Source of the DNA: a virus
Reading direction: 5' to 3' (one strand)
Virus genome (UHGV): UHGV-1421865
Length of the DNA stretch: 64,000 bases
Below are positions 414 to 51,125 of this stretch, piece after piece. How positions within the stretch are numbered: the stretch's first letter is position 1; every line of letters starts with the position of its first letter. The translations under genes and the position numbers were made by a program. The notes beneath the pieces are model-generated. The model ran no database searches. It was not told the DNA's origin and saw only the letters and a list, made by a program, of their open reading frames with translations.

Positions 414-722
414 TCATTTCTCAAAAACACATTCAATACCGTATGCATCTGCAGCCTGGTGTTCAATCACACAACCACGTGCTTTCTCCCAACCTTTACA
501 AAAGTAAACAAGGTCGGCCTGTGCCATCAATTTCAACGACTCTCCCAAGTACAACAATCCTTTGTTCGGTACGTTAGAATTTTCAAAGTCATTACCAAAG
601 TAGGATTCCAGTACAGTCCAACCTATAGACTCATACCGTTCTTTGACACGATTGCGCACCGCACTGATTTCGATATTAGAAAGACCGTTCATCGGTTGAC
701 TGATAAATACTTTCTTTTTCAT
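414..722 (-). CDS. small DUF4406-like protein (nucleoside deoxyribosyltransferase-like fold), inserted after polymerase fragment
   Basis: 102 aa; MKKKVFISQPMNG... with C-terminal W.K..G...E...A...G pattern typical of DUF4406. Confidence 0.4.
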   Translation of the reverse strand: MKKKVFISQPMNGLSNIEISAVRNRVKERYESIGWTVLESYFGNDFENSNVPNKGLLYLGESLKLMAQADLVYFCKGWEKARGCVIEHQAADAYGIECVFEK

Positions 723-2239
723 TTGTTATTTTTTAATTTAATTAGACTATCGATATACGTAAGTAGTTCAGAATCAATACGTTGACCTGTATACTTAAAC
801 TCGTCGCGTTGCTTTTTCATACGACGCTGCATTTTCTTGAACGTATATTCTTTGTCATTTTTGTACACATTCCCGTTCACCGTAACGAAATAATTCGGAT
901 CTTTTCTGAACTTTTCTAGTTCCTCTTCGTCGAACTTTTCGCCATTTTCGTCGATTACAATGTTGTCGAACGACAGATTACAAGTTTGGATCTGTGACGG
1001 GTAAAGTGACGCGAAGTCATAACACACGTTCCATGTGTAGTGTCCGGAGATGCACTCACAGAAAGCACCTTTGTACGGTTTCTTTTCTCGAACGGTATGA
1101 TCCCAGTTGTATACAATTACTTTATTGTTATCGTAAAACTCATAGAACATGTTCGCATTGGTAATGGCTACCTGTCCGAAAGCATCTTTCAACGTAATCA
1201 TTGTACTGGTCGACATAGAACATGGTACTTCCAGTGACTTCAGTTTTCTATGAATCAGCTGTACCAACAAACTGTCGACAGCATTATAGAAATAATACCA
1301 TTCTACATCACGCTCGTAGAGTTGTTGCAACGAACCGTCGTACTTGATCTTATGTGCGTCGACTGCCCTGGACGATACATAATCCAACGAAAACGACTCG
1401 TACGGTACCAAAATTCTGTCGTACTGTTTACAGATTTCCATATAATCCAACACAACACTATGTTGAGGCGCCGGCAGGCTGTACGACGTACCGTCGAGTT
1501 CTTTCCATGCAATCTTAGTGACTTCCCTTGTCGGTGACGCATTATAGATCATGTTCTTGGCTGTAGTAGCACCGAACAGTCGCTTAATGCGTGTCGTAAG
1601 ATACATCCAGTCGAAACGATATGAATTCCACCCTGCAAGTACCGGTGTATTCGGAACTACCTTATTAAAGAATTCCTCTAACAATTCCTCTTCTGAAGAA
1701 AATGCTTTATAATATACTTTAATATAATCTTCTACTTTCTGTCCCGACTGTTCTACAATCGACATTGCAAATTTGTTGTCGCGGATCCATGAAATATATC
1801 GTTCTTTCAGTAAGTTGATAGACTCCTGCGATAGTCGATGTAGACCGTATACGATACAACTCAAATTATGTCCTACTACAGAGATAGCGGTCACTCGTTG
1901 GTCTGCGACTTCGGGGTCAGGGAACTCGTCCGATACCTCTGTTTCAATATCGAATGTATATAGATTAGGATAATTGTTCTCAAACAACGGAGCGAACTCC
2001 TCCTTGTTATTATAAATGTATTCTAATATATCAAACGTATTAGGGTTGTACTCAGATGTCTTCTTATTTACACGTTTTGCCCTTTGTCCGTCCCAGGTAT
2101 CGTACTCCCCGTCCGGGTCATATTCGTACGACGGCATATAACTAAGGTACTTAGTGATAAAGTCGCGTTTACCTTCTTTTGTAATATATGAAATACTGAG
2201 TTTTTTGTCTCGCTTATTCCAGGTTCTATCTAAGATCAT
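719..2239 (-). CDS. family B DNA polymerase, N-terminal/3'-5' exonuclease part with motif A only (gp43-like fragment)
   Basis: Exo I FDIETEV, Exo II GWNSYRFDWMYL, Exo III YNAVDSLLV, pol motif A DFASLYPS near C-terminus; stops about 90 aa later with no motif B (K...NS.YG) or C (DTD). Confidence 0.75.
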   Translation of the reverse strand: MILDRTWNKRDKKLSISYITKEGKRDFITKYLSYMPSYEYDPDGEYDTWDGQRAKRVNKKTSEYNPNTFDILEYIYNNKEEFAPLFENNYPNLYTFDIETEVSDEFPDPEVADQRVTAISVVGHNLSCIVYGLHRLSQESINLLKERYISWIRDNKFAMSIVEQSGQKVEDYIKVYYKAFSSEEELLEEFFNKVVPNTPVLAGWNSYRFDWMYLTTRIKRLFGATTAKNMIYNASPTREVTKIAWKELDGTSYSLPAPQHSVVLDYMEICKQYDRILVPYESFSLDYVSSRAVDAHKIKYDGSLQQLYERDVEWYYFYNAVDSLLVQLIHRKLKSLEVPCSMSTSTMITLKDAFGQVAITNANMFYEFYDNNKVIVYNWDHTVREKKPYKGAFCECISGHYTWNVCYDFASLYPSQIQTCNLSFDNIVIDENGEKFDEEELEKFRKDPNYFVTVNGNVYKNDKEYTFKKMQRRMKKQRDEFKYTGQRIDSELLTYIDSLIKLKNNK

Positions 2240-2316: not shown

Positions 2317-2766
2317 TTAATGCCTAGTACGAATCTCAAATTGAGGATAGTATTCCTCTGGCATCTTATAACAAGCTGCAAACATTAGAAGCGCTTCAAC
2401 CTTATTGGATATATACCAACCAGACAAATCACAATTAAAGTTTTCACACATATAGAACATATTAGACGTGTCTGTCACATTCGATACATCCCAACTGGAC
2501 AAATCGCAATTAAACTTCCAACAATTACTGAACATGCCGCTCATGTTTCTAACATTAGAGACGTCCCATTCGTCTATTTTGATATTTCGGATGTCAAGTG
2601 AATTAAATAAATTAGACATGTCCGTGATCTTCGATGTGTCGATGAAATTGAGATCTGCATCTAGACCTTGATGATACAGTTCTTGTTCTATCAACGAACG
2701 TAACTCATCTTTCGTCGCAGGTCTCACTACAAGCGATTTCGTCTGAGATGTGATGTGTATTGACAT
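2317..2766 (-). CDS. DUF285-repeat protein (start corrected to internal MSIHITSQTKSL)
   Basis: Track ORF extends 39 codons upstream into the neighbouring gene; family N-module begins at the ATG at 2766. Confidence 0.55.
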   Translation of the reverse strand: MSIHITSQTKSLVVRPATKDELRSLIEQELYHQGLDADLNFIDTSKITDMSNLFNSLDIRNIKIDEWDVSNVRNMSGMFSNCWKFNCDLSSWDVSNVTDTSNMFYMCENFNCDLSGWYISNKVEALLMFAACYKMPEEYYPQFEIRTRH

Positions 2767-3409
2767 GCTGATCAAATTTAGGATAATATTCAGGTAGCAT
2801 CTTAGTATACTTGTCAAACATGAATTTGTTGTGCTGAACGTTCGATGTGTTCCAACCAGACAAGTCTGATTTGAATTTTTCACAACAGTAGAACATCGCA
2901 GACATATCCCTCACATTGGACACATTCCAATAGGACAGGTTACCGTTGAATTTTCTACAATTAAAGAACATGCACCACATACTACGTACATTAGAAACGT
3001 CCCAATAGATCAGGTCGGAATTGAAGATGCCACAATTGTAAAACATGTGTGACATGTTGGTGACATTGGACACATTCCAACTAGACAAGTCGCTGTTGAA
3101 AAATAAACACCAATCAAACATGTGTGACATATCCGTCACTTTCGATACATCCCATTTAGACAGATTACAATCTAAACAGGTACAATGACAGAACATCCAA
3201 GACATGTTTGTCACGTTGCTGACATCCCACTCGTCGATTTTGATGCTTCTGGGATTGAGTAACCAAAATAAATTAGACATGTCTGTAATCAGCGATGTGT
3301 CGATATGGTTCAAGTCAGCATCCCAACCTTGACGTTCCAGTTCTTGTTTTATGACAGAACGTAACTCGGCTTTTGTAGTTGGTCTCACTGTTTTAGTACT
3401 ACCATTCAT
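2705..3409 (-). CDS. DUF285-repeat protein (about 7 repeats)
   Basis: N-module ...ELRSVIKQELERQGWDADLNHIDTSLITDMSNLF, then repeated WDVSNVTNMSxMF units. Confidence 0.6.
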   Translation of the reverse strand: MNGSTKTVRPTTKAELRSVIKQELERQGWDADLNHIDTSLITDMSNLFWLLNPRSIKIDEWDVSNVTNMSWMFCHCTCLDCNLSKWDVSKVTDMSHMFDWCLFFNSDLSSWNVSNVTNMSHMFYNCGIFNSDLIYWDVSNVRSMWCMFFNCRKFNGNLSYWNVSNVRDMSAMFYCCEKFKSDLSGWNTSNVQHNKFMFDKYTKMLPEYYPKFDQHVNTHHISDEIACSETCDER

Positions 3410-5612: not shown

Positions 5613-6371
5613 CTAGAGGCCACAGAGGGATCTCAATACGGTTTTGAATTCACCCGACATATTACATTTGTCACTGAGACACCAGTCGATGTAGCTCGGA
5701 TCGATTTTATGAATTTTTTGTACGTCACAACTCCGATATTTACCGAAATTGAACACCACTGCACCGTCGCGGAATGTCTTCAACGAATTGTCGGTAACGA
5801 TAATCGGTACCATTAAGTTATCGGTTTGCTCTTTTTGTTTATTAAATACTTCAAACGTAGCTTTCACGTCCGAAAGTGCGTCGTGGGCGTTTAGTCCGGA
5901 CTCTTCCATTGAATGGCCTGTGTATTTTTCATAAATACCTTCCAGGTCGGTCGGATTGATTCTGTTGTTAATCAAGAAAGAGTCGAAAATAACACGGTCA
6001 GTGAAATTAATAGACTTACCGTATCGTTTGAGTTCCTCGTTCAAGAATGGAATATCAAAGCTATTGCCATTGAATGTCAATACAGCATTCTCTTTCGGAT
6101 TACCGAAGAATTCAACAATTTGGTCTGCGACTTCTTCAAAATGGGGGTATTGTTCCAATTGTTTCGGTGTGATACCGTGTTTGAAATATGCACCCATACT
6201 AATCTTATAAGGTTGTACAGGTTGGATTTTAAGGTCGAGTTCATCAACTACCTCATTTGTTTTCGCATCGTATTTAATAGCCGAGAACTGGATAATCTGA
6301 TCCGTCTCACGATACAGTCCGGTACATTCAATGTCAAATGCGACGATATACTTGTAATTTTGACTTTTCAT
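5613..6371 (-). CDS. DnaQ-like 3'-5' exonuclease (DEDDh; T4 DexA-like)
   Basis: Exo I VAFDIECTG, Exo III H.A..D (HDALSDV). Confidence 0.7.
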   Translation of the reverse strand: MKSQNYKYIVAFDIECTGLYRETDQIIQFSAIKYDAKTNEVVDELDLKIQPVQPYKISMGAYFKHGITPKQLEQYPHFEEVADQIVEFFGNPKENAVLTFNGNSFDIPFLNEELKRYGKSINFTDRVIFDSFLINNRINPTDLEGIYEKYTGHSMEESGLNAHDALSDVKATFEVFNKQKEQTDNLMVPIIVTDNSLKTFRDGAVVFNFGKYRSCDVQKIHKIDPSYIDWCLSDKCNMSGEFKTVLRSLCGL

Positions 6372-7674: not shown

Positions 7675-7815
7675 AAAATTTGCTCTCTGACGCACGATTT
7701 TTGTTGGACCTTACACATACTAAGGTCACTACATTTGAGTGTGTTAGAGAGCCTTAAAAGTGCCTTTACGAGGACGTTAGGTATTTACATACCAGTGCGC
7801 AAAACAGAAACTGTC
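7675..7815 (-). repeat. conserved about 150-nt intergenic element, copy B
   Basis: CTCTCTGACGCAC...GTGTGTTAGAGAG stem with two G-T positions; inner hairpin GGACCTTA..TAAGGTC; TAcaTTTG motif. Confidence 0.6.
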
Positions 7816-7884
7816 TAAATCAGTGCATTTTACAGAATCTACACGTACAGATTTTTACATATACAACAAATATAAACCGACACA
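7815..7884 (+). promoter_or_regulatory. candidate promoter region upstream of giant gene (AAATCAGTGCA ... CAGATTTTTACATATA)
   Basis: Motif pair also present upstream of 26151 array. Confidence 0.3.
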
Positions 7885-10800
7885 ATGGCACGATCGTTAA
7901 TGGATACAATACGACAACGAGGAATTAGAACACCGTCTGGAGAAGAACCCGGATCCGAGGAACGCCCGTCGCTTGTAGACTCTATTATTTCCGGTGCGTT
8001 GGTGTCTTTGTTGTACGGCGTCGACGTATCACCCCGTGATGGAGACGACTTGTCTCGTCAAAGTCAGGCTCTTGGATCGAACAGAAACTCGTTATATAGT
8101 CTTATCGCAGATATTAAACGTACTCTGGAAAGTAGAAATGACGGTACACAACCTACTCTCGTTGAATTCAGTCCTACAACACAGTCTAAAATGGACAACA
8201 TCGTTAGATCGTTAGATAGACTAATTGATATTAAAGGTGTATTAGATACAACGGCTGTAGAATTAGAGTTTATACGTCGACTTTTAGAAAATTCTAATGT
8301 ATTATCTACATTGCCAGATAACAGAAACAGTATACAGCAATTAGATATTGTATTAAGATCCGACGGTAACGGTATAGATAAGTTGGTCGAGCTACTTGAT
8401 AAACTTAAAAATTTTAATATAGACGATGAAACAGCACAAAGACAGATTGTCGGTTTAACAGAAGTAGCTCGTGTTGTAAATACACTGAGTGATGTCAATA
8501 TAAATAGAGACGTACAAAATAATGTAAGTGTACTAAACGACATTATAAAAAACTTATCTAGTATACAAATACCGTCATCCGACACTAAACAAAAACAAAA
8601 CGCTACAGATTTCGGCGAAAGAATAACCAACATCATAAAAGCAATAAATAAGATATTTGAAGATGATACTTTTAAGAACTTAGCTAACAATATAAAGTCT
8701 ATAGAAGAAATTAAACATAAAAACGACCGCGACACTTTCGGTATCGGTATGATCGTCGGCTTCTTGGCATCTTTATCGGCCTTTATCGACAATGCAAATG
8801 TTATATCTAAAAAGAAAGTAAATAAAGGATTTAACAAGGTTTTAGTAAGCATGTCCTCTGAAATAGTAGATTCCCTATCAAAAGTAGCGCATAATATGGG
8901 ATCTGCAAAAAATGACATACTTGTCGTATCAGAAATGTTTTCCGGGTATGCTTCTTTTGTAGATACTGCATTGAAAATATCAGATAGATCGTTAGTATCG
9001 TTGTTATTGTTACATGTTAAATTAAAACTATCGTCGTCTGTATTTAATAAGGCATTTCTGGAACTTGTAACGTCTATAAAAGACATATCTATACAAATGG
9101 GTACTATCAGTGCCGTTACTAGAAGTGACTATAGACAACAAATCAATAACATTAAAGAAACATATTCGCAATTTAACGATACTATAGAAGCAATCGGTGA
9201 CGTTATTAGTATACGGTCGATGATAAAGACGATGCTGAAGTTGAAAGCGGCTAAGGGTACTGTCGACAGTGTTAATAAACTACTTACAGAAATGTTCACT
9301 GTTAGTATACCCCCGCGGGATGCTATGCAAGATCGTTTAGACTATTATATAGAACTCGCAACCGGTCTAAAACTAGTATTCGACGAATTACGACTAGTCA
9401 ACGACGCGGGTATCGGTAGACTCGACAAGTCCATAAAGAACCTCGTCGGTGCCGTTAAAGGACTAGATGCACTTGATAAAGTCGTCGGTAAGAAGACGGG
9501 TAAGAATGTAGGTCGTTTCATCCGAGGTTTCATGCACACCTTGTCTACTATCGACGAAAATGCCATCAATAATGCAGAGGAAACAAGTAAGACCTTCGCG
9601 TTGGTCGTCGGTGTCGCAGTCGGTGCATTACTCGTCGTTAGTGCAGCGTCCCTACTAATATCTTGGAAAGCTGTAGTAATGTTCGCTGCGGCGTTACCGT
9701 TGTTTATCTTAGGTGTATCGAAAGCGGCAGCGAAGATGAGCGGTCTTGATATTGACGACAGATCTATGAGTGCTTTTACTGATTTTGTTCTATCGTCTAC
9801 AATAGCGATGGCAGTCGGTAGTTTCTTGATGCGTTTTGTCCAACTTACCGACCTTACAATGTTCGTAGGAGGACTTATTGCTATGACAATCGGTGTCGGT
9901 ACGGCATATCGTATTATCTCCGCTATAGCAAATGCAGATACTATAAAGAATGTTGAAGCATTCAACCAGATGGTCTTGATGTCTGGTACAGTATTAGTTA
10001 TAGGTTCTTATATAACACAATATACCAATAAAGACGGTATATATAAGTTCCTCGGTATGCTCGGTGGCTTTACAGCCGGCGTCTCGTTAATCTATTTAGG
10101 ACTAGCAAAGATACTTAAAGACGACGTACTCAATGTATCAGAGCAATTTGTTGTGTTAGTCGCTGTATCAGGTGCTATTATGTTCGCCGGTGCATTGGTA
10201 TCTAAACTAATCGACCCCGTCGGTCTTATAACATTCACTGCATCGTTAGGTGCATTCTTGTTCGCCGTCAGCGGTATCTACATATTGCTGTCGAAGAAGA
10301 TTGGTAAGGAAGCCGTACAGATCGGTCGTGATTTCATGGTCTTGTTAGTCGTCTCGGGTGCTATCTTATTAGGCGCCGGTATGTTAATGCCTCTTGTTAA
10401 TAAAGAAGGTCTTATAACATTTACTGTGACACTCGGACTGTTCCTCTTAGGGGTCGGACTTGTATATAAGATAATGGGGTCTGTAGTCGACGACGCATTA
10501 AAGCACGCTCGTGACTTTACTATCCTCATCGCAGTGTCCGGTGCTGTACTCTTAGCCGGTGGTGCTATATTAGAAGCAATGGGTCCGAAAGGTATCGCAC
10601 ATGTTATACTGTTCGGTGTACTGTTATTCGGTTTTGTATACGGACTAACATGGATATACAAGAAGAATGCTAAAGATATAACCACTGCATTCGGTGTAGC
10701 GACAGGTCTTGCATTGTTAGTTGCTGTGTCCGGTGCTGTACTGTTAGCCGGTGGTGCTATACTTGAATTGATGGGCAAAGAAGGTGCCTGGTATACCGTC

Positions 10801-13800
10801 TTGTTCGGTGTCATGCTACTGGGCTTTGTCGCTGCACTAACATGGATATATAAGAAGAACGCTACAGATATTGCGATGTCGATACCGACGGCACTAGCAC
10901 TAGGTATACTCGTTGCTATTTCGGGTGCTGTACTACTGGCAGGGGGCAAAGTCATTGCCGATAACAAAGACATGTGGTGGGCAGTTCCTGAATTTGCGGC
11001 GATAACGGTGTTGTTCGTCGGCGGCATGTCGACTGTAATGTACTTATTAAGTCAAATAAAGGGTAATCTAGTCCAAGGTGGTTTAGCGATGTTGGCTATC
11101 GCAGGCATCACATGGTTGATGGGTAAAGCCCTCCAAGAGGTTGCCCTGGTTGCTCGTATCGCATCCGTCGATGAGGTAAAGCAAGTAATGTTGATAGGGG
11201 GTGTCCTAATTACGGGTGTGACGGCTATCGCCGCTGCATTGGGCGCTATCATAACAAGCGGTGTCGGAGCACTACTGTTGGGGGCCGGTGCCGCCGCACT
11301 TGCTGGTGTAATCGGCTTTGTATTCGCTATCAGTGAAATGGTGCGAAATGTCGTAGTGACAGCTACAATACTAAACAATGCACCTGAAATAGACTTTGAT
11401 AAGGTAAATGGTCTCGTCACCGGTATGTTCGGCATCGCTAAAAATATGGTAGAGGCGGCACCGTGGACGCTGATGGTGAAAGCAAAACTTGTGAGTAGTA
11501 CCATAATGGATCTTATCGGATCACTGGGTACTGTTGCTCAAGTAGTAAAAGACTTGGCAGACTTGAAGATTCCTATATATAACGGTACTAAATTATCCGG
11601 TTATATTACAATAGGCGACGAAACATTCGCTACTGTTGCCTCTAATATAGAAAAAATAATAACGGCGGTAACACGACCGCTTGTCGATACGATAAAAAAG
11701 AACCCAGATCTGTTCGGCACAGGTGATTTCTTCTCGAACCCATTTGTCGATACACCGGCTGTAGCCGCTGCGAAGATGGTAGGACATGTCGGTAATTCGT
11801 TAAGTAAGGTGGCACAGGGTGTTAAAGACTTAGCCGAACTTAAGATTCCTGTATATAACGGTACTACATTAACTAAGTATGTTACATTAGGCAACGAGAC
11901 GTTCAGTAAGGTCTCTACAAACGTAAAGAGTCTTATACTGGCAGTAGCTCGTCCGATTGTGTCGACTATTAAAGACAATCCAGATCTATTCAAAGAAGGT
12001 GCATTCAACGACAGTCCGGCTGTGAATGCGGCGAAAGCCGTCGGTGAAATAGGAAAAACGTTGACGCCGTTGGCACAGGGTGTTCAGTTCTGGTCGATGT
12101 TGAAGGTACCCGTTTACGAAGGTGAAAAGATAAAAGAATACATCACATTAGGAGACGATCAATTTGCACAGGTTGCTATAAATATAAAACGTGTAATCGA
12201 AGCTGTTGGCGGCGCACTTGTCACCACAGTAAAAAACAGTACGTTTATATTCGGTAGCTGGAACGGTGGTCTGATTAGTTCAGATGCACCAGCGTTGAAT
12301 GCGTCCAAGTCTATCTTACTGATTTCCAATTCGTTATCTCCAATAGCACAATGTCTGGCATATTATGCGTCTGGTAAATTCCCTATTATAACAGGATATG
12401 ATGCTCATGGCAAACCGATAATCGACTTGTCGACTACGATAACACAGGACACGATGAAGGTTGCACAACAGAACATCAAAGACGTTCTCACAGCTATATT
12501 AGATGTATTAAAAGACGTACAAGGCGATTTCGGAGGCGACTGGTTCGGTAGCGGTTCGGATGTAGAAAGAGCAAGTAAGGCTGTTACAGAAGTAGCGAAT
12601 TCGTTAAAGACAATGGTCGACGTCGTCGGTAATATGAGTAAAACGGACTTTGCAACTGTTAATGCTCAAGTAAATACGACACAGAAAAACATCAAGAGTC
12701 TATTAGAAGGTGTTGTTAGTATATTCACATTATTTAATAGTACAGCTAAAGATGCCGAGGGTAAAGACATGACAAACGGTTGGTTGAGTCGTATTTGGAA
12801 TGGTAAGAATAAGACAATAGAACAATTCTTAAACGACACTGCCGGTGATATTAAGTCGGCTATTGGTGGTATAGTAGATGCTTCTAAGGAAATAAGTAAG
12901 TTATTTACTGAAATAAGTGATCTTCAAAAGACAATTACCGATAACCAGAATTCAGTTACTAGCTTTATTAAACAAACACCTGTTGAGAAGGGTAGTAAAG
13001 AGATGCAATATGTTATTGTCAAGAACATAGGTAATATACTGTCTACGTTCACTGCGATAGTTAGTAGTATAGACAAAGAAGAACTCTCAAGCAACGCTTC
13101 GGATATTAAAACGATTGCTAAAGACGTTGATACATTCACCGACGGGTTCGGAGATATTCTAAAGTCACTTACCAAGGCGATGCAGTCGACCAATAGTTTT
13201 GTGAGTGCCGATCGCAGTGCGTTGGGTAACTTACAAGCGGTATTAAATGAATACAAGAACAGTATGTTGAAAATGGTAACTGTATTTAAGGGTATCGGAT
13301 CTGTTTCGATGCGAGATATTGCAGACACCACAATGTACCAGGACAGAGCGTTTAATCTACTTATAAGAACAGCACAGAACGCTTCGAACGCCGGAGGTAA
13401 CGGTTATTCTATCCTCGCGAAGGGTATTCTCGAGATTGCTGAAGCCGAAGCACAGCTTGGTCAGAACCAGACATTCGCTCAGCACGCCGCTGTCATGGAA
13501 CGGTATGTACAGACTATCAATGCGGTGAAGGTCGGCAACTTAGACAGGCTGAACAGTTTCGCTATCAGCTTAAACAACCTGGCAGAAAAGTTAGGAAATG
13601 TCGATAAACTCACTCATGCGTTAGCTGTGCATTTGACCGGTGTTCTTAATAGACTGGTTAAGGAAATAGAACGTGCCGAAAAGACCATCAATAACGCCGA
13701 TAAGATGCAGGTTCGTCGCTTCGATATGATCAAGAAATCTGTTAAGGACGTACAAAAGATTATGGACAAGAAGCTCGTTGTAGAAGTGAACCAAGGCATG

Positions 13801-14022
13801 GCTGGCGATGCCACATTAGAAGGCGGGGGTGTAGACTACGGTGGTACATCTAATTCAAGCACGACGATGAACGTTTCGGCGCCGTCCGGTTCTAGCACCG
13901 ACACTACTCCTACCACTAATAAAGCAAATAAAAAGAACGGTAGTATAGGTCTTACAGAACTCAACGAAGCACTCAGTGCAAACAACGACGTACTTGTTCG
14001 TAAATTAAAAGGTCGAAAATAG
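7885..14022 (+). CDS. giant 2045-aa membrane-spanning virion protein (tape-measure or ejection-protein candidate)
   Basis: Single 6.1 kb ORF; coiled-coil-like N-terminal third; at least 10 hydrophobic helices with 4 repeats of SGA.LLAGGAILE.MG...LFGV.L.GFV..LTWIYKKNA.DI; three repeats of about 85 aa KDLADLKIPIYNGT... Confidence 0.5.
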   Translation: MARSLMDTIRQRGIRTPSGEEPGSEERPSLVDSIISGALVSLLYGVDVSPRDGDDLSRQSQALGSNRNSLYSLIADIKRTLESRNDGTQPTLVEFSPTTQSKMDNIVRSLDRLIDIKGVLDTTAVELEFIRRLLENSNVLSTLPDNRNSIQQLDIVLRSDGNGIDKLVELLDKLKNFNIDDETAQRQIVGLTEVARVVNTLSDVNINRDVQNNVSVLNDIIKNLSSIQIPSSDTKQKQNATDFGERITNIIKAINKIFEDDTFKNLANNIKSIEEIKHKNDRDTFGIGMIVGFLASLSAFIDNANVISKKKVNKGFNKVLVSMSSEIVDSLSKVAHNMGSAKNDILVVSEMFSGYASFVDTALKISDRSLVSLLLLHVKLKLSSSVFNKAFLELVTSIKDISIQMGTISAVTRSDYRQQINNIKETYSQFNDTIEAIGDVISIRSMIKTMLKLKAAKGTVDSVNKLLTEMFTVSIPPRDAMQDRLDYYIELATGLKLVFDELRLVNDAGIGRLDKSIKNLVGAVKGLDALDKVVGKKTGKNVGRFIRGFMHTLSTIDENAINNAEETSKTFALVVGVAVGALLVVSAASLLISWKAVVMFAAALPLFILGVSKAAAKMSGLDIDDRSMSAFTDFVLSSTIAMAVGSFLMRFVQLTDLTMFVGGLIAMTIGVGTAYRIISAIANADTIKNVEAFNQMVLMSGTVLVIGSYITQYTNKDGIYKFLGMLGGFTAGVSLIYLGLAKILKDDVLNVSEQFVVLVAVSGAIMFAGALVSKLIDPVGLITFTASLGAFLFAVSGIYILLSKKIGKEAVQIGRDFMVLLVVSGAILLGAGMLMPLVNKEGLITFTVTLGLFLLGVGLVYKIMGSVVDDALKHARDFTILIAVSGAVLLAGGAILEAMGPKGIAHVILFGVLLFGFVYGLTWIYKKNAKDITTAFGVATGLALLVAVSGAVLLAGGAILELMGKEGAWYTVLFGVMLLGFVAALTWIYKKNATDIAMSIPTALALGILVAISGAVLLAGGKVIADNKDMWWAVPEFAAITVLFVGGMSTVMYLLSQIKGNLVQGGLAMLAIAGITWLMGKALQEVALVARIASVDEVKQVMLIGGVLITGVTAIAAALGAIITSGVGALLLGAGAAALAGVIGFVFAISEMVRNVVVTATILNNAPEIDFDKVNGLVTGMFGIAKNMVEAAPWTLMVKAKLVSSTIMDLIGSLGTVAQVVKDLADLKIPIYNGTKLSGYITIGDETFATVASNIEKIITAVTRPLVDTIKKNPDLFGTGDFFSNPFVDTPAVAAAKMVGHVGNSLSKVAQGVKDLAELKIPVYNGTTLTKYVTLGNETFSKVSTNVKSLILAVARPIVSTIKDNPDLFKEGAFNDSPAVNAAKAVGEIGKTLTPLAQGVQFWSMLKVPVYEGEKIKEYITLGDDQFAQVAINIKRVIEAVGGALVTTVKNSTFIFGSWNGGLISSDAPALNASKSILLISNSLSPIAQCLAYYASGKFPIITGYDAHGKPIIDLSTTITQDTMKVAQQNIKDVLTAILDVLKDVQGDFGGDWFGSGSDVERASKAVTEVANSLKTMVDVVGNMSKTDFATVNAQVNTTQKNIKSLLEGVVSIFTLFNSTAKDAEGKDMTNGWLSRIWNGKNKTIEQFLNDTAGDIKSAIGGIVDASKEISKLFTEISDLQKTITDNQNSVTSFIKQTPVEKGSKEMQYVIVKNIGNILSTFTAIVSSIDKEELSSNASDIKTIAKDVDTFTDGFGDILKSLTKAMQSTNSFVSADRSALGNLQAVLNEYKNSMLKMVTVFKGIGSVSMRDIADTTMYQDRAFNLLIRTAQNASNAGGNGYSILAKGILEIAEAEAQLGQNQTFAQHAAVMERYVQTINAVKVGNLDRLNSFAISLNNLAEKLGNVDKLTHALAVHLTGVLNRLVKEIERAEKTINNADKMQVRRFDMIKKSVKDVQKIMDKKLVVEVNQGMAGDATLEGGGVDYGGTSNSSTTMNVSAPSGSSTDTTPTTNKANKKNGSIGLTELNEALSANNDVLVRKLKGRK

Positions 14023-14029
14023 TACTTAT

Positions 14030-14070
14030 CAATAACAAAATAAGACGGTCTCTGGAATGAACGAGATCGT
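14030..14070. terminator. hairpin terminator after giant gene
   Basis: AATAAGACGgtctc...gagatCGTCTTATTTCAG; stem then T-run. Confidence 0.5.
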
Positions 14071-14109
14071 CTTATTTCAGTTATATATCGACTAAACTCT
14101 AAACGTCCA

Positions 14110-14258
14110 AAAATCTCCTCTCTAACGCACGATTTTTCTTTGACCTTCACTAGGCTAAGCCTAGTATATTTGAGTGCGTTAGAGAGCCTTAAAAGTGCCT
14201 TTACGGGCTTGTAATGTATTTGTACGTCCCTGCCCAAAACAGAAAACGTACAAATCAG
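14110..14258 (-). repeat. conserved about 150-nt intergenic element, copy C
   Basis: CTCTCTAACGCAC...GTGCGTTAGAGAG perfect stem; inner hairpin CTAGGCTAAGCCTAG; TAtaTTTG motif preceded by TTTG 22 nt upstream. Confidence 0.6.
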
Positions 14259-14322
14259 GACAAAAAGTATGATTTATCATATAAAAACAGCTATTGTAAA
14301 TATACAAATATAGTAAATAAAT

Positions 14323-17845: not shown

Positions 17846-18958
17846 TTAATACAGTTCTATACGTAGACCTAACTTATTGGCTTTTAACATCTTAGATGAT
17901 GTAGAGTTTATATCACCCGTGAAGAGTACTTTCGCGTCTGACCAACTGTTTGTTTGAACGTACTGTGGATTCTTCTCCAGAAATTCTTTCTTAGACGCAT
18001 ATTTAGACGGACTACCCGTCAACATCACAGGCACTTGTGTAGTCTTGCTTGTACCGACGTGTAAGTTTGTAAGTTGACACATACCAATGCCGTAGTCAGT
18101 AAGTGCGTTAACCAACGCATTGAATTGCAACCATTTAGGTGATTGGTGATTATAGACCCAACTGTACCCTTCCGATGCGACACCACTGAAATCGGCTTGT
18201 CCAGTACCGATGAACTGCGCACATTTCTTAGCGCATGTGGAACCACATTTGTTGAAATTCAACGACTTGATGATGTCTACTAATGTGATTTGTCGTCGGT
18301 AATTCTTAAACGATTCGGCGGCTTTCTGCCCTCGTTTACCTTTCAACGCTTGTTCTATCTGTTCCGGTCTTACTTGGAGTATATTTGTTAAACTCTCGAA
18401 GTTATGTTGTAAAGTGTCGTACAACGCAGCCGCTACAGACGGACCGATGTTAGGTATCTTCAGAGTTTGTGCAGACGCGATGAACTGCCCACGGTTACTC
18501 ACAAGACCCACCAGATGACAACCTTCTACAACAGCATCATTTGGTAAACTACCGAGGTCCTTTGATGGATTGTCAAGTACAGAATAAAGAAACGGAATAA
18601 TGTCACCGGCTAAGGAAACTTCAATCTCCGTACCTATACCTACTTGATTATCAATAAGATAGCCGTAGTTATGTCCAGAACATTTAGTGACTATTTTATC
18701 AAGTAGTACAACAGGTTCAAAGACAATCACCGGTGTATACTCTCCGGTCTTACCTTGGTTCCATACAATATCTACTACCTTCGTCTTTTGAATTTCCGGA
18801 ACAAATTTCACAGCAACGCAGTCCGACGGTCGAACTTTATCGGTATTCTGTTCTCTGACAGGGAGTATAGGCTTGATAACAAACCCGTCCAGAGCATATT
18901 CACACTCTTCGGTACGGTATTTGTTAAAGTCGTTATATAGTTCTTGTAAGGTACTCAT
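17846..18958 (-). CDS. NAD-dependent DNA ligase, C-terminal polypeptide (NTase motifs IV-V, OB, HhH and BRCT-like regions)
   Basis: Begins inside adenylation domain: LDGFVIKP (motif IV), VAVKF (motif V); start ATG overlaps stop of upstream TS-like gene (TAATG). Confidence 0.7.
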   Translation of the reverse strand: MSTLQELYNDFNKYRTEECEYALDGFVIKPILPVREQNTDKVRPSDCVAVKFVPEIQKTKVVDIVWNQGKTGEYTPVIVFEPVVLLDKIVTKCSGHNYGYLIDNQVGIGTEIEVSLAGDIIPFLYSVLDNPSKDLGSLPNDAVVEGCHLVGLVSNRGQFIASAQTLKIPNIGPSVAAALYDTLQHNFESLTNILQVRPEQIEQALKGKRGQKAAESFKNYRRQITLVDIIKSLNFNKCGSTCAKKCAQFIGTGQADFSGVASEGYSWVYNHQSPKWLQFNALVNALTDYGIGMCQLTNLHVGTSKTTQVPVMLTGSPSKYASKKEFLEKNPQYVQTNSWSDAKVLFTGDINSTSSKMLKANKLGLRIELY

Positions 18959-19926
18959 TATACTGCGATAGGTGCTTTAATAACAGGGGGTGTATAAGAA
19001 CCGTCGAAATGTTTCTTTACCTTTATCTGTCGGCTTTCGTACATCTCCAAAATATAACACAAATAAGCGTCTAAGGACATCGGTACATTCACAGTAGACA
19101 TGGTCATATCCAAGGTGCATTCTACGGTATGATAACATTGCGTCACATAGTCATCGGTATTAGTAAAGAACGAATCGATATATTCCTGTACAGCATCTTT
19201 ATGATTGTCGTAGATATGGAAATTATCGGCGGTATAGTATATATTTCCGCATTTTACTTTATCGATACCATATTTCTTTTTGAACCATTCATGGTTGACC
19301 TTAAAATAGCCGTTTATAAACCAGTTGAACCAAGAACAGAATATGAAATTATACGGCGCACCCAAGAACGCGTCGTTACTGCGAATATGAGCATGTAGGT
19401 TGTGTGTAAGTACTGTATTCCCAGCGTCGTCTGTGTCCAACTGAAATGTAACGTTATATTCGAACATACAAGGTGCCAGTGCCATTTCCGGTAGGTCGTT
19501 CACATTCCAAAGTGAGATAATATGTCGGCGCGAGAATAAATTGTTATTGAAACCTTCAAATAGTTGTTTCAACTGATCAATACCGTTAAAGTTTCGAAAC
19601 TGATAACCGTACGCCTTACCGATAGTACCATCTTCCTGTACCCATTCATCCCAATAGGTAACACCGTGGTCGCGAAGCCACTGTACGTCGGTCCGTCCTT
19701 GCAGCATCCAGAGTAGTTCGGTGAGTGCCATTCGAGGATAAACACGTTTTCCGTTCACCACCATCAGTCGAACTTCGTCGGACGGTGAAGGAGACTGTTC
19801 AAATACAAAGTTGATACCGTAAGAGTTCAACGTACTGATGTCGGTTCTATTCGACATTTTCTGTGTGACAGTCGACAATATGTTAGTAAGCTGTCTTACA
19901 TAGTCTGTTTCAAATAGTTGTGTCAT
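18958..19926 (-). CDS. thymidylate synthase family enzyme (ThyA or dUMP-hydroxymethylase-like) with about 100-aa C-terminal extension
   Basis: LTELLWMLQGRTDV, RRHIISLWNVNDL, MALAPCM (catalytic Cys), PYN (Asn, uracil-specific); 322 aa versus about 260 typical. Confidence 0.75.
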   Translation of the reverse strand: MTQLFETDYVRQLTNILSTVTQKMSNRTDISTLNSYGINFVFEQSPSPSDEVRLMVVNGKRVYPRMALTELLWMLQGRTDVQWLRDHGVTYWDEWVQEDGTIGKAYGYQFRNFNGIDQLKQLFEGFNNNLFSRRHIISLWNVNDLPEMALAPCMFEYNVTFQLDTDDAGNTVLTHNLHAHIRSNDAFLGAPYNFIFCSWFNWFINGYFKVNHEWFKKKYGIDKVKCGNIYYTADNFHIYDNHKDAVQEYIDSFFTNTDDYVTQCYHTVECTLDMTMSTVNVPMSLDAYLCYILEMYESRQIKVKKHFDGSYTPPVIKAPIAV

Positions 19927-20602
19927 TGTTTAATGGATATTCTAGTTTATAAAATTTAGGTGTCTTGGGAAGTCCGTACCATTCTCGTTCTGTCCACTTA
20001 CCGTTTTCTAATACTCTATAATCGTATATGATAATGTCTAAATCATCGTCGTATTCGTGAGATGTACTATTCAAGACACCCGATACCATCGAACGAGGAC
20101 TCGAGAACTTATCTTTGTATTTCTCTTCAAATGTCTTCAGTTTTACCAGCACCTCACCACGTATAACTGCCTGTGCACCATATACATAGTAGTCTGGATA
20201 AACCGATCGAATTTGCTTAATAAGGTGGCTACGCAAGTCTTTACCGTAATTCCCGTCGCCCCGAGACGATATGCTGCCAACAGTACCGTTCGCATTGATA
20301 ACACATTCGAAAGAACAACCGTCGAATTTCGGGGTCACTTCTATGGCATTATCACCGACATATTTTTTAATATCTTCTGTATAATTAGAAAAATCATCTA
20401 AGCTATGAACTTGGACCTTGTAGAGGGATCCCATTATAAACGGATGCCGTACAGTATATGTTGTACTGGATTTAGTACCGATATAAGACTTGTTCTCGAG
20501 ACCTAGCTCTTTCTCTAACGCGTCAAATTCTGTGTCAGACATTATCTCCTGCCCATTGTAGTATGCTTCTTTTGCTTTATGGTATAATTCTTCTTTTGTC
20601 AT
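19910..20602 (-). CDS. NAD-dependent DNA ligase, N-terminal polypeptide (domain Ia plus NTase motif I)
   Basis: YYNGQEIMSDTEFDALEKEL (domain Ia), HPFIMGSL, KxDG lysine motif TPKFDGCSF; ends 17 nt after start of TS-like gene. Confidence 0.7.
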   Translation of the reverse strand: MTKEELYHKAKEAYYNGQEIMSDTEFDALEKELGLENKSYIGTKSSTTYTVRHPFIMGSLYKVQVHSLDDFSNYTEDIKKYVGDNAIEVTPKFDGCSFECVINANGTVGSISSRGDGNYGKDLRSHLIKQIRSVYPDYYVYGAQAVIRGEVLVKLKTFEEKYKDKFSSPRSMVSGVLNSTSHEYDDDLDIIIYDYRVLENGKWTEREWYGLPKTPKFYKLEYPLNNDTTI

Positions 20603-21039: not shown

Positions 21040-21172
21040 TCTCTTGCTCTATTAGTACACGCAACTCGTTGTAAGTAGCAGGTTTTAATTTAGCCGATTT
21101 CGTATTCGATGTGATCTTTAGACGTTCGTTAATGAAATTTTGTAGACTCATTTATTCGCTAGTATTGTTTAT
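21040..21172 (-). pseudogene. DUF285 N-module remnant (truncated after about 44 codons)
   Basis: Translates MSLQNFINERLKITSNTKSAKLKPATYNELRVLIEQEIKNQGPY then stop; no repeats follow. Confidence 0.4.
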
Positions 21173-21810
21173 CAGTCTTTGAATTTTGGTTGAAGTTGTG
21201 GATTAGTTCCCATATTAGGACATTTATCAAATGTCATATAATACTTGATTACTTTCGACACATCCCACTCAGACAAGTCACAATTGAAACGTTCGCAAAA
21301 ATAGAACATATAACTCATATTTTTAACATTGGTGACATTCCAAGAACTTAAATCTACATTTAGCTTTTTACACCAAGAGAACATATCTTCCATGTTTTCT
21401 ACTTTACTAACGTTCCAATTTTCTATACCTTTGCCTTCAAATTTTTTACATTCATAAAACATGAAAGACATGTTCGTTACATTAGAGGTGTTCCAATTTT
21501 CTACTCCATCGCCTCTGAAGTTATCTTGACCTACAAACATGTTTTGCATAGTAGTTACATTTGATGTATTCCACTGGTCAATTTTGATATTTCCGATGTT
21601 TAATTTATAAAACAAACTAACCATATCTGTAATCTCCGATGTATCTATAAAGTTCAAATCGGCGTTCGGACCTTGTTCTTTTAGTTCTTGTTCTATAATA
21701 GATCTGAGTTCGTCTTTTGTTTTAGGTCTCAATCTTAATGGTTGGGTATCGGGCGTAATCTTTAATCGTTCTGTGATTAAACTATCGTGAATGTATCGTG
21801 AAAGTGACAT
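21172..21810 (-). CDS. DUF285-repeat protein; C-terminal 71 aa identical to 26151..26696
   Basis: N-module MSLSRYIHDSLITERLKITPD...; 3' 214 bp identical in inverted orientation to 26478..26694. Confidence 0.6.
   Translation of the reverse strand: MSLSRYIHDSLITERLKITPDTQPLRLRPKTKDELRSIIEQELKEQGPNADLNFIDTSEITDMVSLFYKLNIGNIKIDQWNTSNVTTMQNMFVGQDNFRGDGVENWNTSNVTNMSFMFYECKKFEGKGIENWNVSKVENMEDMFSWCKKLNVDLSSWNVTNVKNMSYMFYFCERFNCDLSEWDVSKVIKYYMTFDKCPNMGTNPQLQPKFKD
21177..21392. repeat. left arm of perfect 214-bp inverted repeat
   Basis: Reverse complement identical to 26478..26694. Confidence 0.8.
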
Positions 21811-26150: not shown

Positions 26151-26696
26151 ATGTCACTTTCAACATTCATCACAGAACGATTAAAGATTACATCTAACTC
26201 TAAATCAGCTATACACAAACCATCGTCGAGAGACGAACTCAAATCTATTATAGAACAAGAACTGGAACGTCAAGGTCCGGATGCCGATTTGAACCATATT
26301 GACGTATCTTACATTACAGATATGTCTTATTTATTTTACAAATTAAACATCGAAAACATTAAAATCGACCAGTGGGACGTTTCCAATGTCACTAATATGG
26401 AAGGGATGTTTTATGAATGTAGTAATTTTGAAGGCAACGGCCTAGAAAACTGGGACGTATCGAACGTCACTACTATGGAAGATATGTTCTCTTGGTGTAA
26501 AAAGCTAAATGTAGATTTAAGTTCTTGGAATGTCACCAATGTTAAAAATATGAGTTATATGTTCTATTTTTGCGAACGTTTCAATTGTGACTTGTCTGAG
26601 TGGGATGTGTCGAAAGTAATCAAGTATTATATGACATTTGATAAATGTCCTAATATGGGAACTAATCCACAACTTCAACCAAAATTCAAACAGTAA
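26151..26696 (+). CDS. DUF285-repeat protein (N-module type MSLS.FITERLKITS)
   Basis: N-module plus repeats; 3' 214 bp identical in inverted orientation to 21177..21392. Confidence 0.6.
   Translation: MSLSTFITERLKITSNSKSAIHKPSSRDELKSIIEQELERQGPDADLNHIDVSYITDMSYLFYKLNIENIKIDQWDVSNVTNMEGMFYECSNFEGNGLENWDVSNVTTMEDMFSWCKKLNVDLSSWNVTNVKNMSYMFYFCERFNCDLSEWDVSKVIKYYMTFDKCPNMGTNPQLQPKFKQ
26478..26694. repeat. right arm of perfect 214-bp inverted repeat
   Basis: Reverse complement identical to 21177..21392. Confidence 0.8.
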
Positions 26697-26702
26697 TCAA
26701 CA

Positions 26703-27299: not shown

Positions 27300-27304
27300 A
27301 TAAT

Positions 27305-33958: not shown

Positions 33959-33982
33959 GTATCATTTTACATCGATTTGTAT

Positions 33983-34130
33983 GATTTCTGTTTTGTGTAC
34001 TGGTATACCAAACTATAACAAGCCCGTAAAGGCACTTTTTAGCCTCTCTAACGCACTCAAATGTACTTACCTTGGTACTACCAAGCCTCAACAAAAATCG
34101 TGCGTTAGAGGGGAGATTTTTGTGTGTTTT
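33983..34130 (+). repeat. conserved about 150-nt intergenic element, copy E
   Basis: GTTTCTGTTTTGTGTACTGGTAT...CGTAAAGGCACTTTTTAGCC-TCTCTAACGCAC-[CCTTGGTAgTACCAAGG]-GTGCGTTAGAGG-GGAGATTTTTGTG. Confidence 0.65.
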
Positions 34131-34296
34131 CAAAATCAACCTACCTATTATGATGTTGGTTGTGTCACAACGTATAATAAAATACATATAAAGCGTACTT
34201 TACGTATATTATATGATACCTTATGGAAAATCACATTAACTTTATTAGTACAGTATCTTTAGTACTGTTTGGTAGCAGTTTAGTGTGATTTTGTCG

Positions 34297-50991: not shown

Positions 50992-51125
50992 ATAATATAC
51001 TTTATTTCTAATCAATTTGTTTTGGTACACTTGTACAACATCTTGTTCAGTATAATCAATTATCACAACTTAAATCACTGTAGACTGTAAACCTATGATA
51101 AAGGTTGCACAATATATCTGAATGA

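What the first reader, a model, noticed from the sequence alone, without database searches (positions are those of the whole stretch)
7885..14022. 2045-aa protein with a block of repeated transmembrane hairpins and triplicated 85-aa repeats
The product has a long N-terminal coiled-coil-like region. About residues 560-1100 carry at least 10 hydrophobic helices, including four tandem units of the form (F.VLVAVSGA.LLAGGAILE.MG..G......LFGV.L.GFV..LTWIYKKNA.DI). Three further repeats of about 85 aa begin KDLADLKIPIYNGT.L..Y.T.G.ETF..V..N... It is the only plus-strand gene in a minus-strand block and is followed by a strong terminator. Candidate roles are tape-measure protein, ejection protein or membrane-channel protein. 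It is unusually membrane-rich for a tape-measure protein.
Basis: partly seen in the sequence, partly recalled or inferred. Interest (0 to 1): 0.55.

Follow-up and report, generated by a model that had tools for sequence, protein, structure and literature searches.

The report
Giant membrane-rich phage tape measure protein
This 2,045-residue gene is most likely the tail tape measure protein of an uncultured jumbo phage of gut or rumen Bacteroidota, enlarged by tandem copies of a membrane hairpin and of a new 90-residue unit, and it belongs to a very large family that no database has named.

Summary
The ORF (7885-14022, +, 2,045 aa) is real. Its features are as described or stronger: 8 tandem 62-aa transmembrane hairpins (16 helices) plus about 3 more helices, then 4 copies of a 90-aa helix/beta-hairpin/helix unit, flanked by long amphipathic-helical regions. 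It is not the only plus-strand gene; four more follow.

It has no Pfam or PHROG match. A profile search found 617 clusters (50% identity) of unnamed, metagenome-only giants of 1,500-3,727 aa with the same layout. Copy numbers of both repeats vary (2-12 hairpins, 4-16 units).

The key link is a compact homologue in isolated Bacteroidota jumbo myoviruses: Chryseobacterium phage MA9V-2 gene 061 (1,082 aa), PAU gp97 and PTm1 ORF-027/028. hhalign gives 96.5% probability over 573 collinear columns. In each phage the gene lies just downstream of the tail sheath gene.

MA9V-1 and MA9V-2 tails measure 170 and 166 nm. At 1.5 A per residue, 1,082 aa gives 162 nm.

Best explanation, confidence about 0.7: a tape measure protein that also builds the inner-membrane conduit. 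It predicts a tail of about 310-320 nm. This is a new variant of a known kind.

The parts
7885..14022 (+). Whole gene: 2,045-aa giant protein, putative tail tape measure protein
   Evidence: ORF list and translation. 15 close homologues. 617 family clusters. hhalign to MA9V2_061: 96.5% probability.
7885..9585 (+). N-terminal hydrophilic region, aa 1-567, amphipathic-helical and coiled-coil-like
   Evidence: 3.5-residue hydrophobic periodicity z = 7, 1.2% Pro, no Cys. Extreme N-terminus conserved across the family.
9586..11067 (+). Array of 8 tandem transmembrane-hairpin units of about 62 aa (aa 568-1061, 16 helices)
   Evidence: Self-BLAST period of 62 aa. Hairpin HMM finds units at 568-621, 629-685, 691-748, 752-810, 814-872, 875-936, 939-1000 and 1003-1061. 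K/R is concentrated at unit boundaries. Relatives have 8, 9 or 10 units.
11068..11364 (+). About 3 further hydrophobic Gly/Ala-rich helices (aa 1062-1160)
   Evidence: Hydropathy and charge-free runs. Aligned collinearly with MA9V2_061.
11476..12564 (+). Four tandem units of about 90 aa (aa 1198-1560), each helix / beta-hairpin / helix / linker; the family hallmark
   Evidence: Self-BLAST E down to 8e-28. Repeat HMM finds 4 units here and 1,232 units in 163 proteins. AF2 secondary structure, low confidence.
12565..13809 (+). C-terminal helical region (aa 1561-1975). It contains the most conserved family core, aa 1782-1970 (nt 13228-13794).
   Evidence: Invariant columns cluster here across distant homologues. 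Periodicity z = 12. AF2 predicts nearly all helix.
13810..14019 (+). Ser/Thr/Gly-rich linker and conserved basic C-terminal peptide (aa 1976-2045)
   Evidence: Translation and consensus. MA9V2_061 has a similar Q/N-rich stretch and a basic end.
14038..14077 (+). Terminator-like hairpin 16 nt after the stop codon
   Evidence: RNA fold -24.1 kcal/mol, z = -5.53, 0 of 200 shuffles as stable.
7683..7830 (+). Upstream copy of a repeated intergenic element of about 150 nt; likely a promoter or 5' leader of the gene
   Evidence: Six copies in the window, none expected by chance. Alignment. Same 138-nt offset upstream of the orthologue in L005.

Best explanation
The gene encodes the tail tape measure protein (TMP) of an uncultured jumbo myovirus of about 220 kb that infects Bacteroidota. 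The phage belongs to the broad lineage containing Sphingomonas/Sphingobacterium phage PAU, Tenacibaculum phages PTm1 and pT24, Chryseobacterium phages MA9V-1/2 and, more distantly, the Lak megaphages.

Inferred mechanism: during assembly, several copies lie extended and largely alpha-helical inside the tail tube and set its length at about 1.5 A per residue. That gives roughly 310-320 nm for this phage. After sheath contraction the protein is expelled through the tube tip. Its central block of 8 tandem hydrophobic hairpins, plus about 3 more helices, inserts into the host inner membrane and builds the conduit for the DNA.

The protein has grown, and varies between relatives, by tandem duplication of two modules: the 62-aa hairpin (about 9 nm each) and a 90-aa helix/beta-hairpin/helix unit (about 13.5 nm each).

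Shown here: the architecture, the repeats, the family, the homology to the tail-module gene of isolated myoviruses, and the length match in those phages. Inferred: presence in the virion, the ruler function in this phage, and membrane insertion on infection.
For: 1. Homology to a tail-module gene. tblastn of family member P0057 hit MA9V2_061. My repeat HMM hits it twice (domain E 8e-12 and 1e-16, 95 bits), and the full-length family HMM gives 88 bits. hhalign of the window family against MA9V2_061 gives 96.5% probability, E 7.7e-10, over 573 collinear columns spanning the TM block and the repeats.

2. Position. MA9V2_061, PAU gp97 and PTm1 ORF-027/028 each lie a few kb downstream of the tail sheath gene, after several small genes. 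MA9V2_068 downstream hits a PHROG tail protein at 4e-22.

3. Ruler. MA9V2_061 and its MA9V-1 orthologue are 1,082 aa, which gives 162 nm at 1.5 A per residue. Measured contractile tails are 166 nm (PMC13414440) and 170 nm (PMC10537231).

4. MA9V2_061 is the only one of 12 large MA9V-2 ORFs with hydrophobic helices or a family match, and no other gene there is annotated as a TMP.

5. Weak direct TMP signals. MA9V2_061 hits phrog_4372 'tail length tape measure protein' at E 1e-6 over about 330 residues. Two of 16 diverse family members hit TMP PHROGs at 3e-8 and 6e-7.

6. TMP-type anatomy. The ends are hydrophilic and helical (periodicity z = 7-12), there is a central hydrophobic block, and there are tandem repeats with quantised copy-number differences between close relatives. 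Known TMPs are described the same way (PMC8616913, which cites Mahony 2016 and Belcaid 2011).

7. The phage is a T4-type myovirus relative. A neck protein lies in the window, and gp13 and gp2 homologues lie in related loci.
Against: In the window and in all 8 divergent metagenomic loci, the gene is not in a recognisable tail module. In the window it lies among replication genes. Elsewhere it lies next to an OmpA-like outer-membrane protein gene and metabolic genes. No sheath or tube homologue lies within 10 kb.

The window protein itself has no Pfam or PHROG hit, and the TM blocks alone hit no TMP PHROG.

The alternating K/R pattern of the loops is what a co-translationally inserted membrane protein would show.

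Structure predictions were low-confidence (pLDDT 41 and 57) and gave no fold match.

The beta-hairpin-containing repeat is not a plain coiled coil.

The ruler match rests on two closely related phages measured by one laboratory using negative-stain EM. No virion proteomics were available for any homologue.

Only 64 kb of about 223 kb of this genome was visible, so another TMP candidate elsewhere cannot be excluded.
Confidence: 0.7

Rival explanations
1. It is an integral inner-membrane protein made in the infected cell and is not a virion part. It is anchored by about 19 helices, with its large N- and C-terminal domains in the cytoplasm. It works with the phage-encoded OmpA-like outer-membrane protein to remodel or stabilise the envelope, exclude superinfecting phages, or organise replication or assembly at the membrane.
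For: The inter-hairpin loops are K/R-rich and the hairpin tips are not: 12 against 4 K/R in the window, and 40-60% against 10-20% of units family-wide. In divergent lineages the gene directly follows an OmpA-domain gene whose product has a Bacteroidota-type signal peptide and a beta-barrel-like N-terminal half. The gene sits among non-structural genes in the window.
Against: The homologue in isolated myoviruses lies in the tail module and matches tail length (PMC13414440, PMC10537231). The conserved blocks in these genomes mix unrelated functions, so adjacency to OmpA is weak evidence. Quantised length variation from 1,500 to 3,700 aa is hard to explain for a membrane scaffold. The positive-loop pattern does not exclude post-translational insertion from outside.
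Confidence: 0.12
2. It is a virion-borne ejection or pilot protein that is injected and forms a trans-envelope or inner-membrane channel for DNA. It is not the length-determining ruler; it is carried in the head or at the tail tip, and a different protein measures the tail.
For: The hydrophobic content (16-19 helices, and 13-28 across the family) far exceeds what a ruler needs and suits channel building. The gene is detached from the tail module in the metagenomic lineages.
Against: The 162 nm against 166-170 nm match in MA9V-1/2 would be a coincidence. No other TMP candidate exists among the large ORFs of MA9V-2. The gene holds the TMP position after sheath and tube in three isolated phages. 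Myoviruses are not known to need head-borne channel proteins (general knowledge).
Confidence: 0.13
3. It is a surface, adhesin-like or fibre protein of the virion, such as a tail fibre or head decoration, whose repeats vary for host-range reasons.
For: Copy number of a 90-aa unit with a beta-hairpin is variable. Many BspA-like DUF285 surface-type paralogues are present in the same genome.
Against: About 19 hydrophobic helices are incompatible with a soluble fibre. The protein is mostly alpha-helical. The C-terminus, not a variable tip, is the most conserved part. No fibre or adhesin family matches.
Confidence: 0.03

Closest known systems
MA9V2_061 (Chryseobacterium phages MA9V-2 and MA9V-1), PAU gp97, PTm1/PTm5 ORF-027/028, pT24: 'hypothetical' proteins of isolated Bacteroidota jumbo myoviruses
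   Same: Same family. They share the 90-aa helix/beta-hairpin/helix unit, a central block of 9-13 hydrophobic helices, helical ends and a basic C-terminal end, with collinear hhalign at 96.5%. The phages share T4-type replication and neck genes with the window.
   Different: They are half the size (about 880-1,100 aa), with only 1-2 repeat units and no recognisable 62-aa hairpin periodicity (the hairpin HMM does not hit). They are encoded next to the sheath and tube genes, whereas the window gene is not. None is annotated as a TMP in its record.
Classical tape measure proteins (lambda gpH, T4 gp29, TP901-1 TMP, HK97 TMP, T5 pb2)
   Same: Long and mostly helical. Hydrophilic ends and a central hydrophobic block. 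Tandem repeats whose number scales with tail length. About 1.5 A of tail per residue. Proposed to form the membrane channel for DNA (PMC8616913 and references there; general knowledge).
   Different: No detectable sequence similarity for the window protein. About 19 hydrophobic helices arranged as 8 tandem hairpins, against a few (about 6 in the example read). The repeat is a 90-aa unit with a beta-hairpin, not the 11-residue aromatic periodicity described for siphovirus TMPs. No muralytic domain was found.
Giant tape measure proteins of long-tailed or jumbo phages: P23-45 TMP (5,002 aa, 800-nm tail; bioRxiv 10.1101/2022.12.01.518664) and phiKZ gp181 (2,237 aa, recalled from memory)
   Same: They show that TMPs of 2,000-5,000 aa exist and that length tracks very long tails.
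   Different: Those carry fused enzymatic domains (an RNA polymerase, a lytic transglycosylase). This family has none detectable and instead expands membrane hairpins and a structural repeat.

Membership tests
Phage tail tape measure proteins (functional class) | Encoded in the tail module, downstream of the sheath/tube (or major tail) genes and their small chaperone genes | tested here: not met
   For the window gene: its neighbours are DNA polymerase, resolvase, methyltransferase and ligase, and there is no sheath or tube within 10 kb in 9 related loci. For the homologues in isolated phages the feature is met.
Phage tail tape measure proteins (functional class) | Protein length proportional to tail length (about 1.5 A per residue) | tested here: met
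   Tested on homologues only. 1,082 aa gives 162 nm, against 166 nm (MA9V-2, PMC13414440) and 170 nm (MA9V-1, PMC10537231). It cannot be tested for the window phage, which has no virion image. The prediction is 307-322 nm.
Phage tail tape measure proteins (functional class) | Predominantly alpha-helical, extended protein with hydrophilic ends and a central hydrophobic segment | tested here: met
   Hydropathy. 3.5-residue periodicity z = 6-12. AF2 secondary structure is mostly helix, though at low pLDDT.
Phage tail tape measure proteins (functional class) | Internal tandem repeats, with length variation between relatives by whole units | tested here: met
   The TM block is 600, 662 or 724 aa, and the C part is 880 against about 970 aa. 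Hairpin units 8/9/10, and 2-12 family-wide. 90-aa units 4-16.
Phage tail tape measure proteins (functional class) | Physical presence inside the tail tube of the virion, and ejection on infection | not testable with these tools
   No proteomics or cryo-EM for any homologue was found in the accessible literature.
Curated TMP sequence families (Pfam and PHROG tape measure models) | Significant match to a TMP profile | tested here: inconclusive
   The window protein has no Pfam or PHROG hit. The homologue MA9V2_061 hits phrog_4372 at E 1e-6. Two of 16 diverse members hit phrog_1272 and phrog_4200, in a region I could not locate; it is not the TM block.
Co-translationally inserted polytopic inner-membrane proteins | Alternating loop charge (positive-inside rule) across consecutive helices | tested here: met
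   K/R 12 against 4 in alternate loops of TM3-TM10. Family-wide, K/R occurs at 40-60% of unit boundaries against 10-20% of hairpin tips. This does not by itself exclude a TMP.

The most novel reading that the evidence does not exclude
In the gut and rumen lineages the protein is no longer, or not only, a tail ruler. It has left the tail module and forms a conserved operon with two unknown proteins (58 aa and 218 aa), next to a phage-encoded OmpA-like outer-membrane protein. It has multiplied its membrane hairpins to as many as 28 helices. On this reading it would be the core of a phage-built, envelope-spanning machine: either a very large DNA-entry pore assembled from the ejected protein, or a structure built in the infected cell's envelope. 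No such machine has been described for tailed phages.
Probability: 0.12. Interest if true: 0.8.

Novelty: new variant of a known kind. Interest (0 to 1): 0.5.

Why it matters
The result gives a functional name to a very large, completely unannotated protein family. The family has 617 clusters at 50% identity and is the hallmark giant gene of abundant gut and rumen jumbo phages of Bacteroidota. No member of this family was found in any isolated gut or rumen phage.

If the assignment holds, gene length becomes a direct readout of virion shape from metagenomes alone. It predicts contractile tails of about 230-590 nm, and about 310-320 nm for this phage. That would fit old electron-microscope sightings of rumen Prevotella phages with extremely long tails (cited in the Lak megaphage paper).

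The tandem hairpin array, 16-28 membrane helices per chain, is the most membrane-rich tape measure proposed so far. With MA9V-2 as a cultivable model, it offers a tractable system for asking how myovirus tape measures build the inner-membrane DNA channel.

The 90-aa helix/beta-hairpin/helix unit has no match in Pfam, PHROGs or PDB sequences. It had no structural match either, though the model was of low confidence.

Tried and rejected
- Megablast and tblastn of the window protein against 50,697 phage records: no match. P0138 and P0081: none. P0020: only a weak hit in an uncultured 462-kb phage, LR756500.1.
- Pfam and PHROGs on the window protein and on 16 diverse members: no consistent family. 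TM blocks alone against PHROGs: nothing.
- PDB sequence profile search: only chance coiled-coil and haemagglutinin matches.
- AF2 of the C-terminal 880 aa (pLDDT 41) and of three repeat units with 41 sequences (pLDDT 57). Foldseek against PDB and BFVD: no match with E < 0.4.
- The search for homologous proteins with the repeat alignment returned nothing. No source names any family member.
- The conserved 218-aa and 58-aa downstream partners: no PHROG, Pfam or PDB match. The 218-aa link to MA9V2_201, which lies next to the gp5-like hub gene, is inconclusive at hhalign 15%.
- Rfam on the window: no hits. tRNAs: none.
- The PTm1 paper with possible virion proteomics is not held. PAU dimensions are not tabulated.
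- Surface-fibre or adhesin reading: rejected because of the 19 hydrophobic helices and the helical content.
Full report
**Observation**

The window contains one uninterrupted ORF at 7885-14022 on the plus strand, 2,045 codons with an ATG start. The extreme N-terminus (M1, A2, G13, P17, E21) is conserved in homologues. This supports the ATG at 7885, even though the JGI call for the identical protein is 55 residues shorter.

Hydropathy analysis finds a dense block of hydrophobic, charge-free helices between residues 567 and 1160. Fragment-against-self BLAST shows two independent repeat families. One has a 62-residue period across about 626-1024 (E down to 3e-30). The other has an 88-92-residue period across about 1204-1586 (E down to 8e-28).

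HMMs built from these units refine the picture:
- Eight tandem hairpin units at 568-1061, which is 16 helices, followed by about three Gly/Ala-rich helices.
- Four units of about 90 residues at 1198-1560.

The N-terminal (60-560) and C-terminal (1561-1975) regions show strong 3.5-residue hydrophobic periodicity (z = 7 and 12 against shuffles). They contain almost no proline and no cysteine.

A 15-bp hairpin (-24 kcal/mol, z = -5.5) lies 16 nt after the stop codon.

One claim fails. The gene is not the only plus-strand gene. A RuvC-like resolvase, a 121-aa ORF, a DNA methyltransferase and a 232-aa ORF follow on the same strand.

**Context**

The window is part of a large phage genome with a T4-style toolkit: a split family-B DNA polymerase, topoisomerase II subunits, a split NAD-dependent ligase, ThyA, SSB and an exonuclease. 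It also holds a neck-protein homologue at 21828-23525.

The identical giant protein lies on a 223-kb JGI contig, and close relatives lie on contigs of 207-228 kb. The best catalogued match for the topoisomerase is the Lak megaphages of Prevotella, at 49% identity. A phage-encoded OmpA-like protein with a Bacteroidota-type signal peptide and many BspA-like DUF285 paralogues point to a Bacteroidota host.

**The family**

The window protein has no Pfam or PHROG match and no DNA or protein match among 50,697 phage records.

A profile of its C-terminal 880 residues, which excludes the membrane block, was searched against 1.84 billion cluster representatives. It found 617 clusters at E <= 1e-3, of which 286 are at E <= 1e-30. 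Nearly all are giants of 1,500-3,727 residues.

Every one of the 163 proteins in hand has the 90-residue unit, with 4 to 16 copies and a median of 7. Although the search profile excluded it, they also have the membrane block, with a median of 17 hydrophobic segments and 13-28 in 16 diverse members. 153 of them have recognisable hairpin units, from 2 to 12.

Length differences among close relatives are quantised. The membrane block is 600, 662 or 724 residues, and the C part is 880 against about 970 residues.

None of the ten clusters examined carries any name from any source; all are metagenomic. Sixteen diverse members share no Pfam domain.

**Structure**

Two AlphaFold2 runs gave low confidence (pLDDT 41 and 57), but both gave the same secondary-structure pattern. 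Each 90-residue unit is a helix of about 28 residues, a beta-hairpin, another helix of about 28 residues and a flexible linker. The remaining C-terminal 450 residues are almost entirely helical.

Foldseek against PDB and BFVD found nothing with E below 0.4. A PDB sequence profile search gave only chance coiled-coil matches.

**The link to function**

A tblastn search with one divergent member (P0057) gave a weak hit in Chryseobacterium phage MA9V-2, an isolated 218.5-kb myovirus, inside gene MA9V2_061 (1,082 aa, 'hypothetical').

Local profile searches show this is a real, compact relative. It has two copies of the 90-residue unit (domain E 8e-12 and 1e-16, 95 bits), and the full-length family HMM scores 88 bits. 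hhalign of the window's family alignment against it gives 96.5% probability, E 7.7e-10, over 573 collinear columns. These run from the second half of the membrane block through the Gly/Ala-rich helices into the repeats.

MA9V2_061 has the same layout: a short helical N-terminus, 13 hydrophobic helices, the repeats, a helical C part and a basic end.

Further homologues are:
- The MA9V-1 orthologue, 96% identical.
- PAU gp97, 1,096 aa, with 9 hydrophobic segments and one repeat.
- PTm1 and PTm5 ORF-027/028.
- A pT24 gene.

In MA9V-2, PAU and PTm1 the gene lies a few kb downstream of the tail sheath gene, after several small genes. That is the standard tape-measure position in myoviruses. A PHROG 'tail protein' follows in MA9V-2 (4e-22), and MA9V2_061 itself hits a PHROG tape-measure family (phrog_4372, E 1e-6, one stretch of 330 residues). 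Two of 16 diverse family members also hit TMP PHROGs. Those hits are not in the membrane block, and I could not locate them further.

Across the whole MA9V-2 genome, gene 061 is the only one of 12 large ORFs with any hydrophobic helix or family match. No gene there is annotated as a tape measure.

**The ruler test**

The papers describing these phages report contractile tails of about 166 nm for MA9V-2 (PMC13414440) and about 170 nm for MA9V-1 (PMC10537231). At the classical 1.5 A per residue, 1,082 residues give 162 nm.

The same scaling predicts about 307-322 nm for the window protein and about 226-587 nm across the family. One hairpin unit corresponds to about 9 nm and one 90-residue unit to about 13.5 nm.

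The Lak preprint cites an old image of a rumen Prevotella phage with a tail up to 800 nm (bioRxiv 10.1101/356790). The published version uses PAU as the outgroup of the Lak phages (PMC6784885).

**Relatedness**

Twelve of 75 window ORFs have BLAST-detectable homologues in MA9V-2 at 23-39% identity, mostly replication genes plus a neck protein and a lysozyme domain. MA9V-2 is therefore a distant cultured cousin, not a close relative.

**What does not fit**

In the window and its close relative L005 the gene sits among replication genes.

In eight divergent metagenomic loci it sits in a different conserved block: Peptidase_G2 domain protein, glycosyltransferase, further genes, OmpA-like protein, GIANT, a 58-aa gene, a 218-aa gene, then IMPDH or a DNA methylase. 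The last three genes of the core (giant, 58 aa, 218 aa) are separated by only 0-30 nt. No sheath or tube homologue lies within 10 kb.

The 58-aa and 218-aa partners have no recognisable relatives. A hint that the 218-aa protein resembles MA9V2_201, which lies beside the gp5-like hub gene, is not significant.

The OmpA-like neighbour looks like a complete secreted outer-membrane protein. The loops between hairpins are K/R-rich while the hairpin tips are not, as in ordinary inner-membrane proteins.

These points keep alive the rival that the protein works in the infected cell's envelope. Against that rival, structural genes are scattered throughout these genomes: gp13, gp2, gp4 and neck homologues turn up next to metabolic genes. 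Adjacency therefore carries little weight.

**Conclusion**

The most economical reading is a tape measure protein that has been expanded by tandem duplication of two modules. Its very large hydrophobic block is the part that inserts into the host inner membrane after ejection. I put this at about 0.7.

The rivals are:
- A non-ruler ejected channel protein, 0.13.
- An infected-cell membrane protein partnered with the OmpA-like protein, 0.12.

As a tape measure it is a known kind of protein. As a family it is unannotated, very large, built from two new repeat modules, and more membrane-rich than any tape measure I could find described. I therefore rate it a new variant of a known kind, of moderate interest.

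**In passing**

A structured intergenic element of about 150 nt flanks the gene on both sides and occurs six times in the window, always oriented with local transcription. It lies at the same 138-nt offset upstream of the orthologue in L005. It has no Rfam match.

Noticed in passing
window ~7683-7830 (+), ~14118-14265 (+), ~33965-34118 (-), ~34278-34431 (-), ~41852-42005 (-), ~60062-60213 (-); L005 9863-9886: A conserved intergenic element of about 150 nt occurs six times, always oriented with local transcription. Its core is GAGAGCCTTAAAAGTGCCTTTACG, and none are expected by chance. It contains an 11-13-bp inverted repeat (CTCTCTAACGCAC...GTGCGTTAGAGAG) that encloses a variable inner hairpin. 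Two copies flank the giant gene, and one lies at the same 138-nt offset upstream of the orthologue in a relative. There is no Rfam hit and covariation is weak. It may be a promoter or leader cassette, or a recombination hotspot like the promoter stem-loops of T4-like phages.
   Followed up: partly
window 49957-51066 (-), with neighbour 51126-51668 (-): The phage encodes an OmpA-like protein with a Bacteroidota-type signal peptide (…LGASAQ), a beta-barrel-like N-terminal half and a C-terminal OmpA peptidoglycan-binding domain. In eight divergent relatives its orthologue lies directly upstream of the giant gene. The neighbouring 180-aa ORF matches the lysozyme domain of the MA9V-2 gp5-like hub protein at 39% identity.
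   Followed up: partly
L001 16923-17730; L003 17452-18258; L006 17342-18174; L011 21184-22035; L012 16083-16943; L008, L009, L010: A tightly packed operon of giant gene, 58-60-aa gene and 208-218-aa gene is conserved in 8 of 8 divergent metagenomic loci, but is absent from the 64-kb window. Both small partners lack any Pfam, PHROG or PDB relative. The 218-aa protein is highly conserved (56-62% identity across lineages in which the giant is about 25% identical).
   Followed up: partly
window 2705-3409 (-), 21172-21810 (-), 26151-28081 (+), 28114-28965 (+), 30052-30840 (+): At least seven paralogous DUF285 / BspA-like leucine-rich-repeat genes (phrog_17273 / PF03382), several of them in a tandem plus-strand array. 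This is a large investment in surface-type repeat proteins by a phage.
   Followed up: no
window 719-2239 (-) and 5613-6371 (-); 17846-18958 (-) and 19910-20602 (-): Two replication enzymes are split into separate genes. The family-B DNA polymerase has its polymerase part and exonuclease part separated by about 3.4 kb holding eight ORFs. The NAD-dependent ligase has its adenylation domain and its OB/C-terminal part separated by thymidylate synthase.
   Followed up: no
window 21828-23525 (-): A 565-aa ORF is homologous to the annotated 'neck protein' MA9V2_087 (25% identity over 250 aa) and hits a PHROG head-closure family. A virion gene therefore sits among replication genes, which shows that structural genes are scattered in this genome.
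   Followed up: partly
window 7885-8049: The public (JGI) gene call for the identical protein (P0001, 1,990 aa) starts 55 codons downstream of the ATG at 7885. The first 55 residues are conserved in homologues, so the public call is probably truncated.
   Followed up: yes
L019 (PTm1) 7796-10446: In Tenacibaculum phage PTm1 the homologue is annotated as two overlapping genes, ORF-027 (391 aa) and ORF-028 (492 aa, labelled 'ubiquitin-like proteins'). That label looks like a mis-annotation of a tape-measure-type protein. Whether the split is real was not examined.
   Followed up: no
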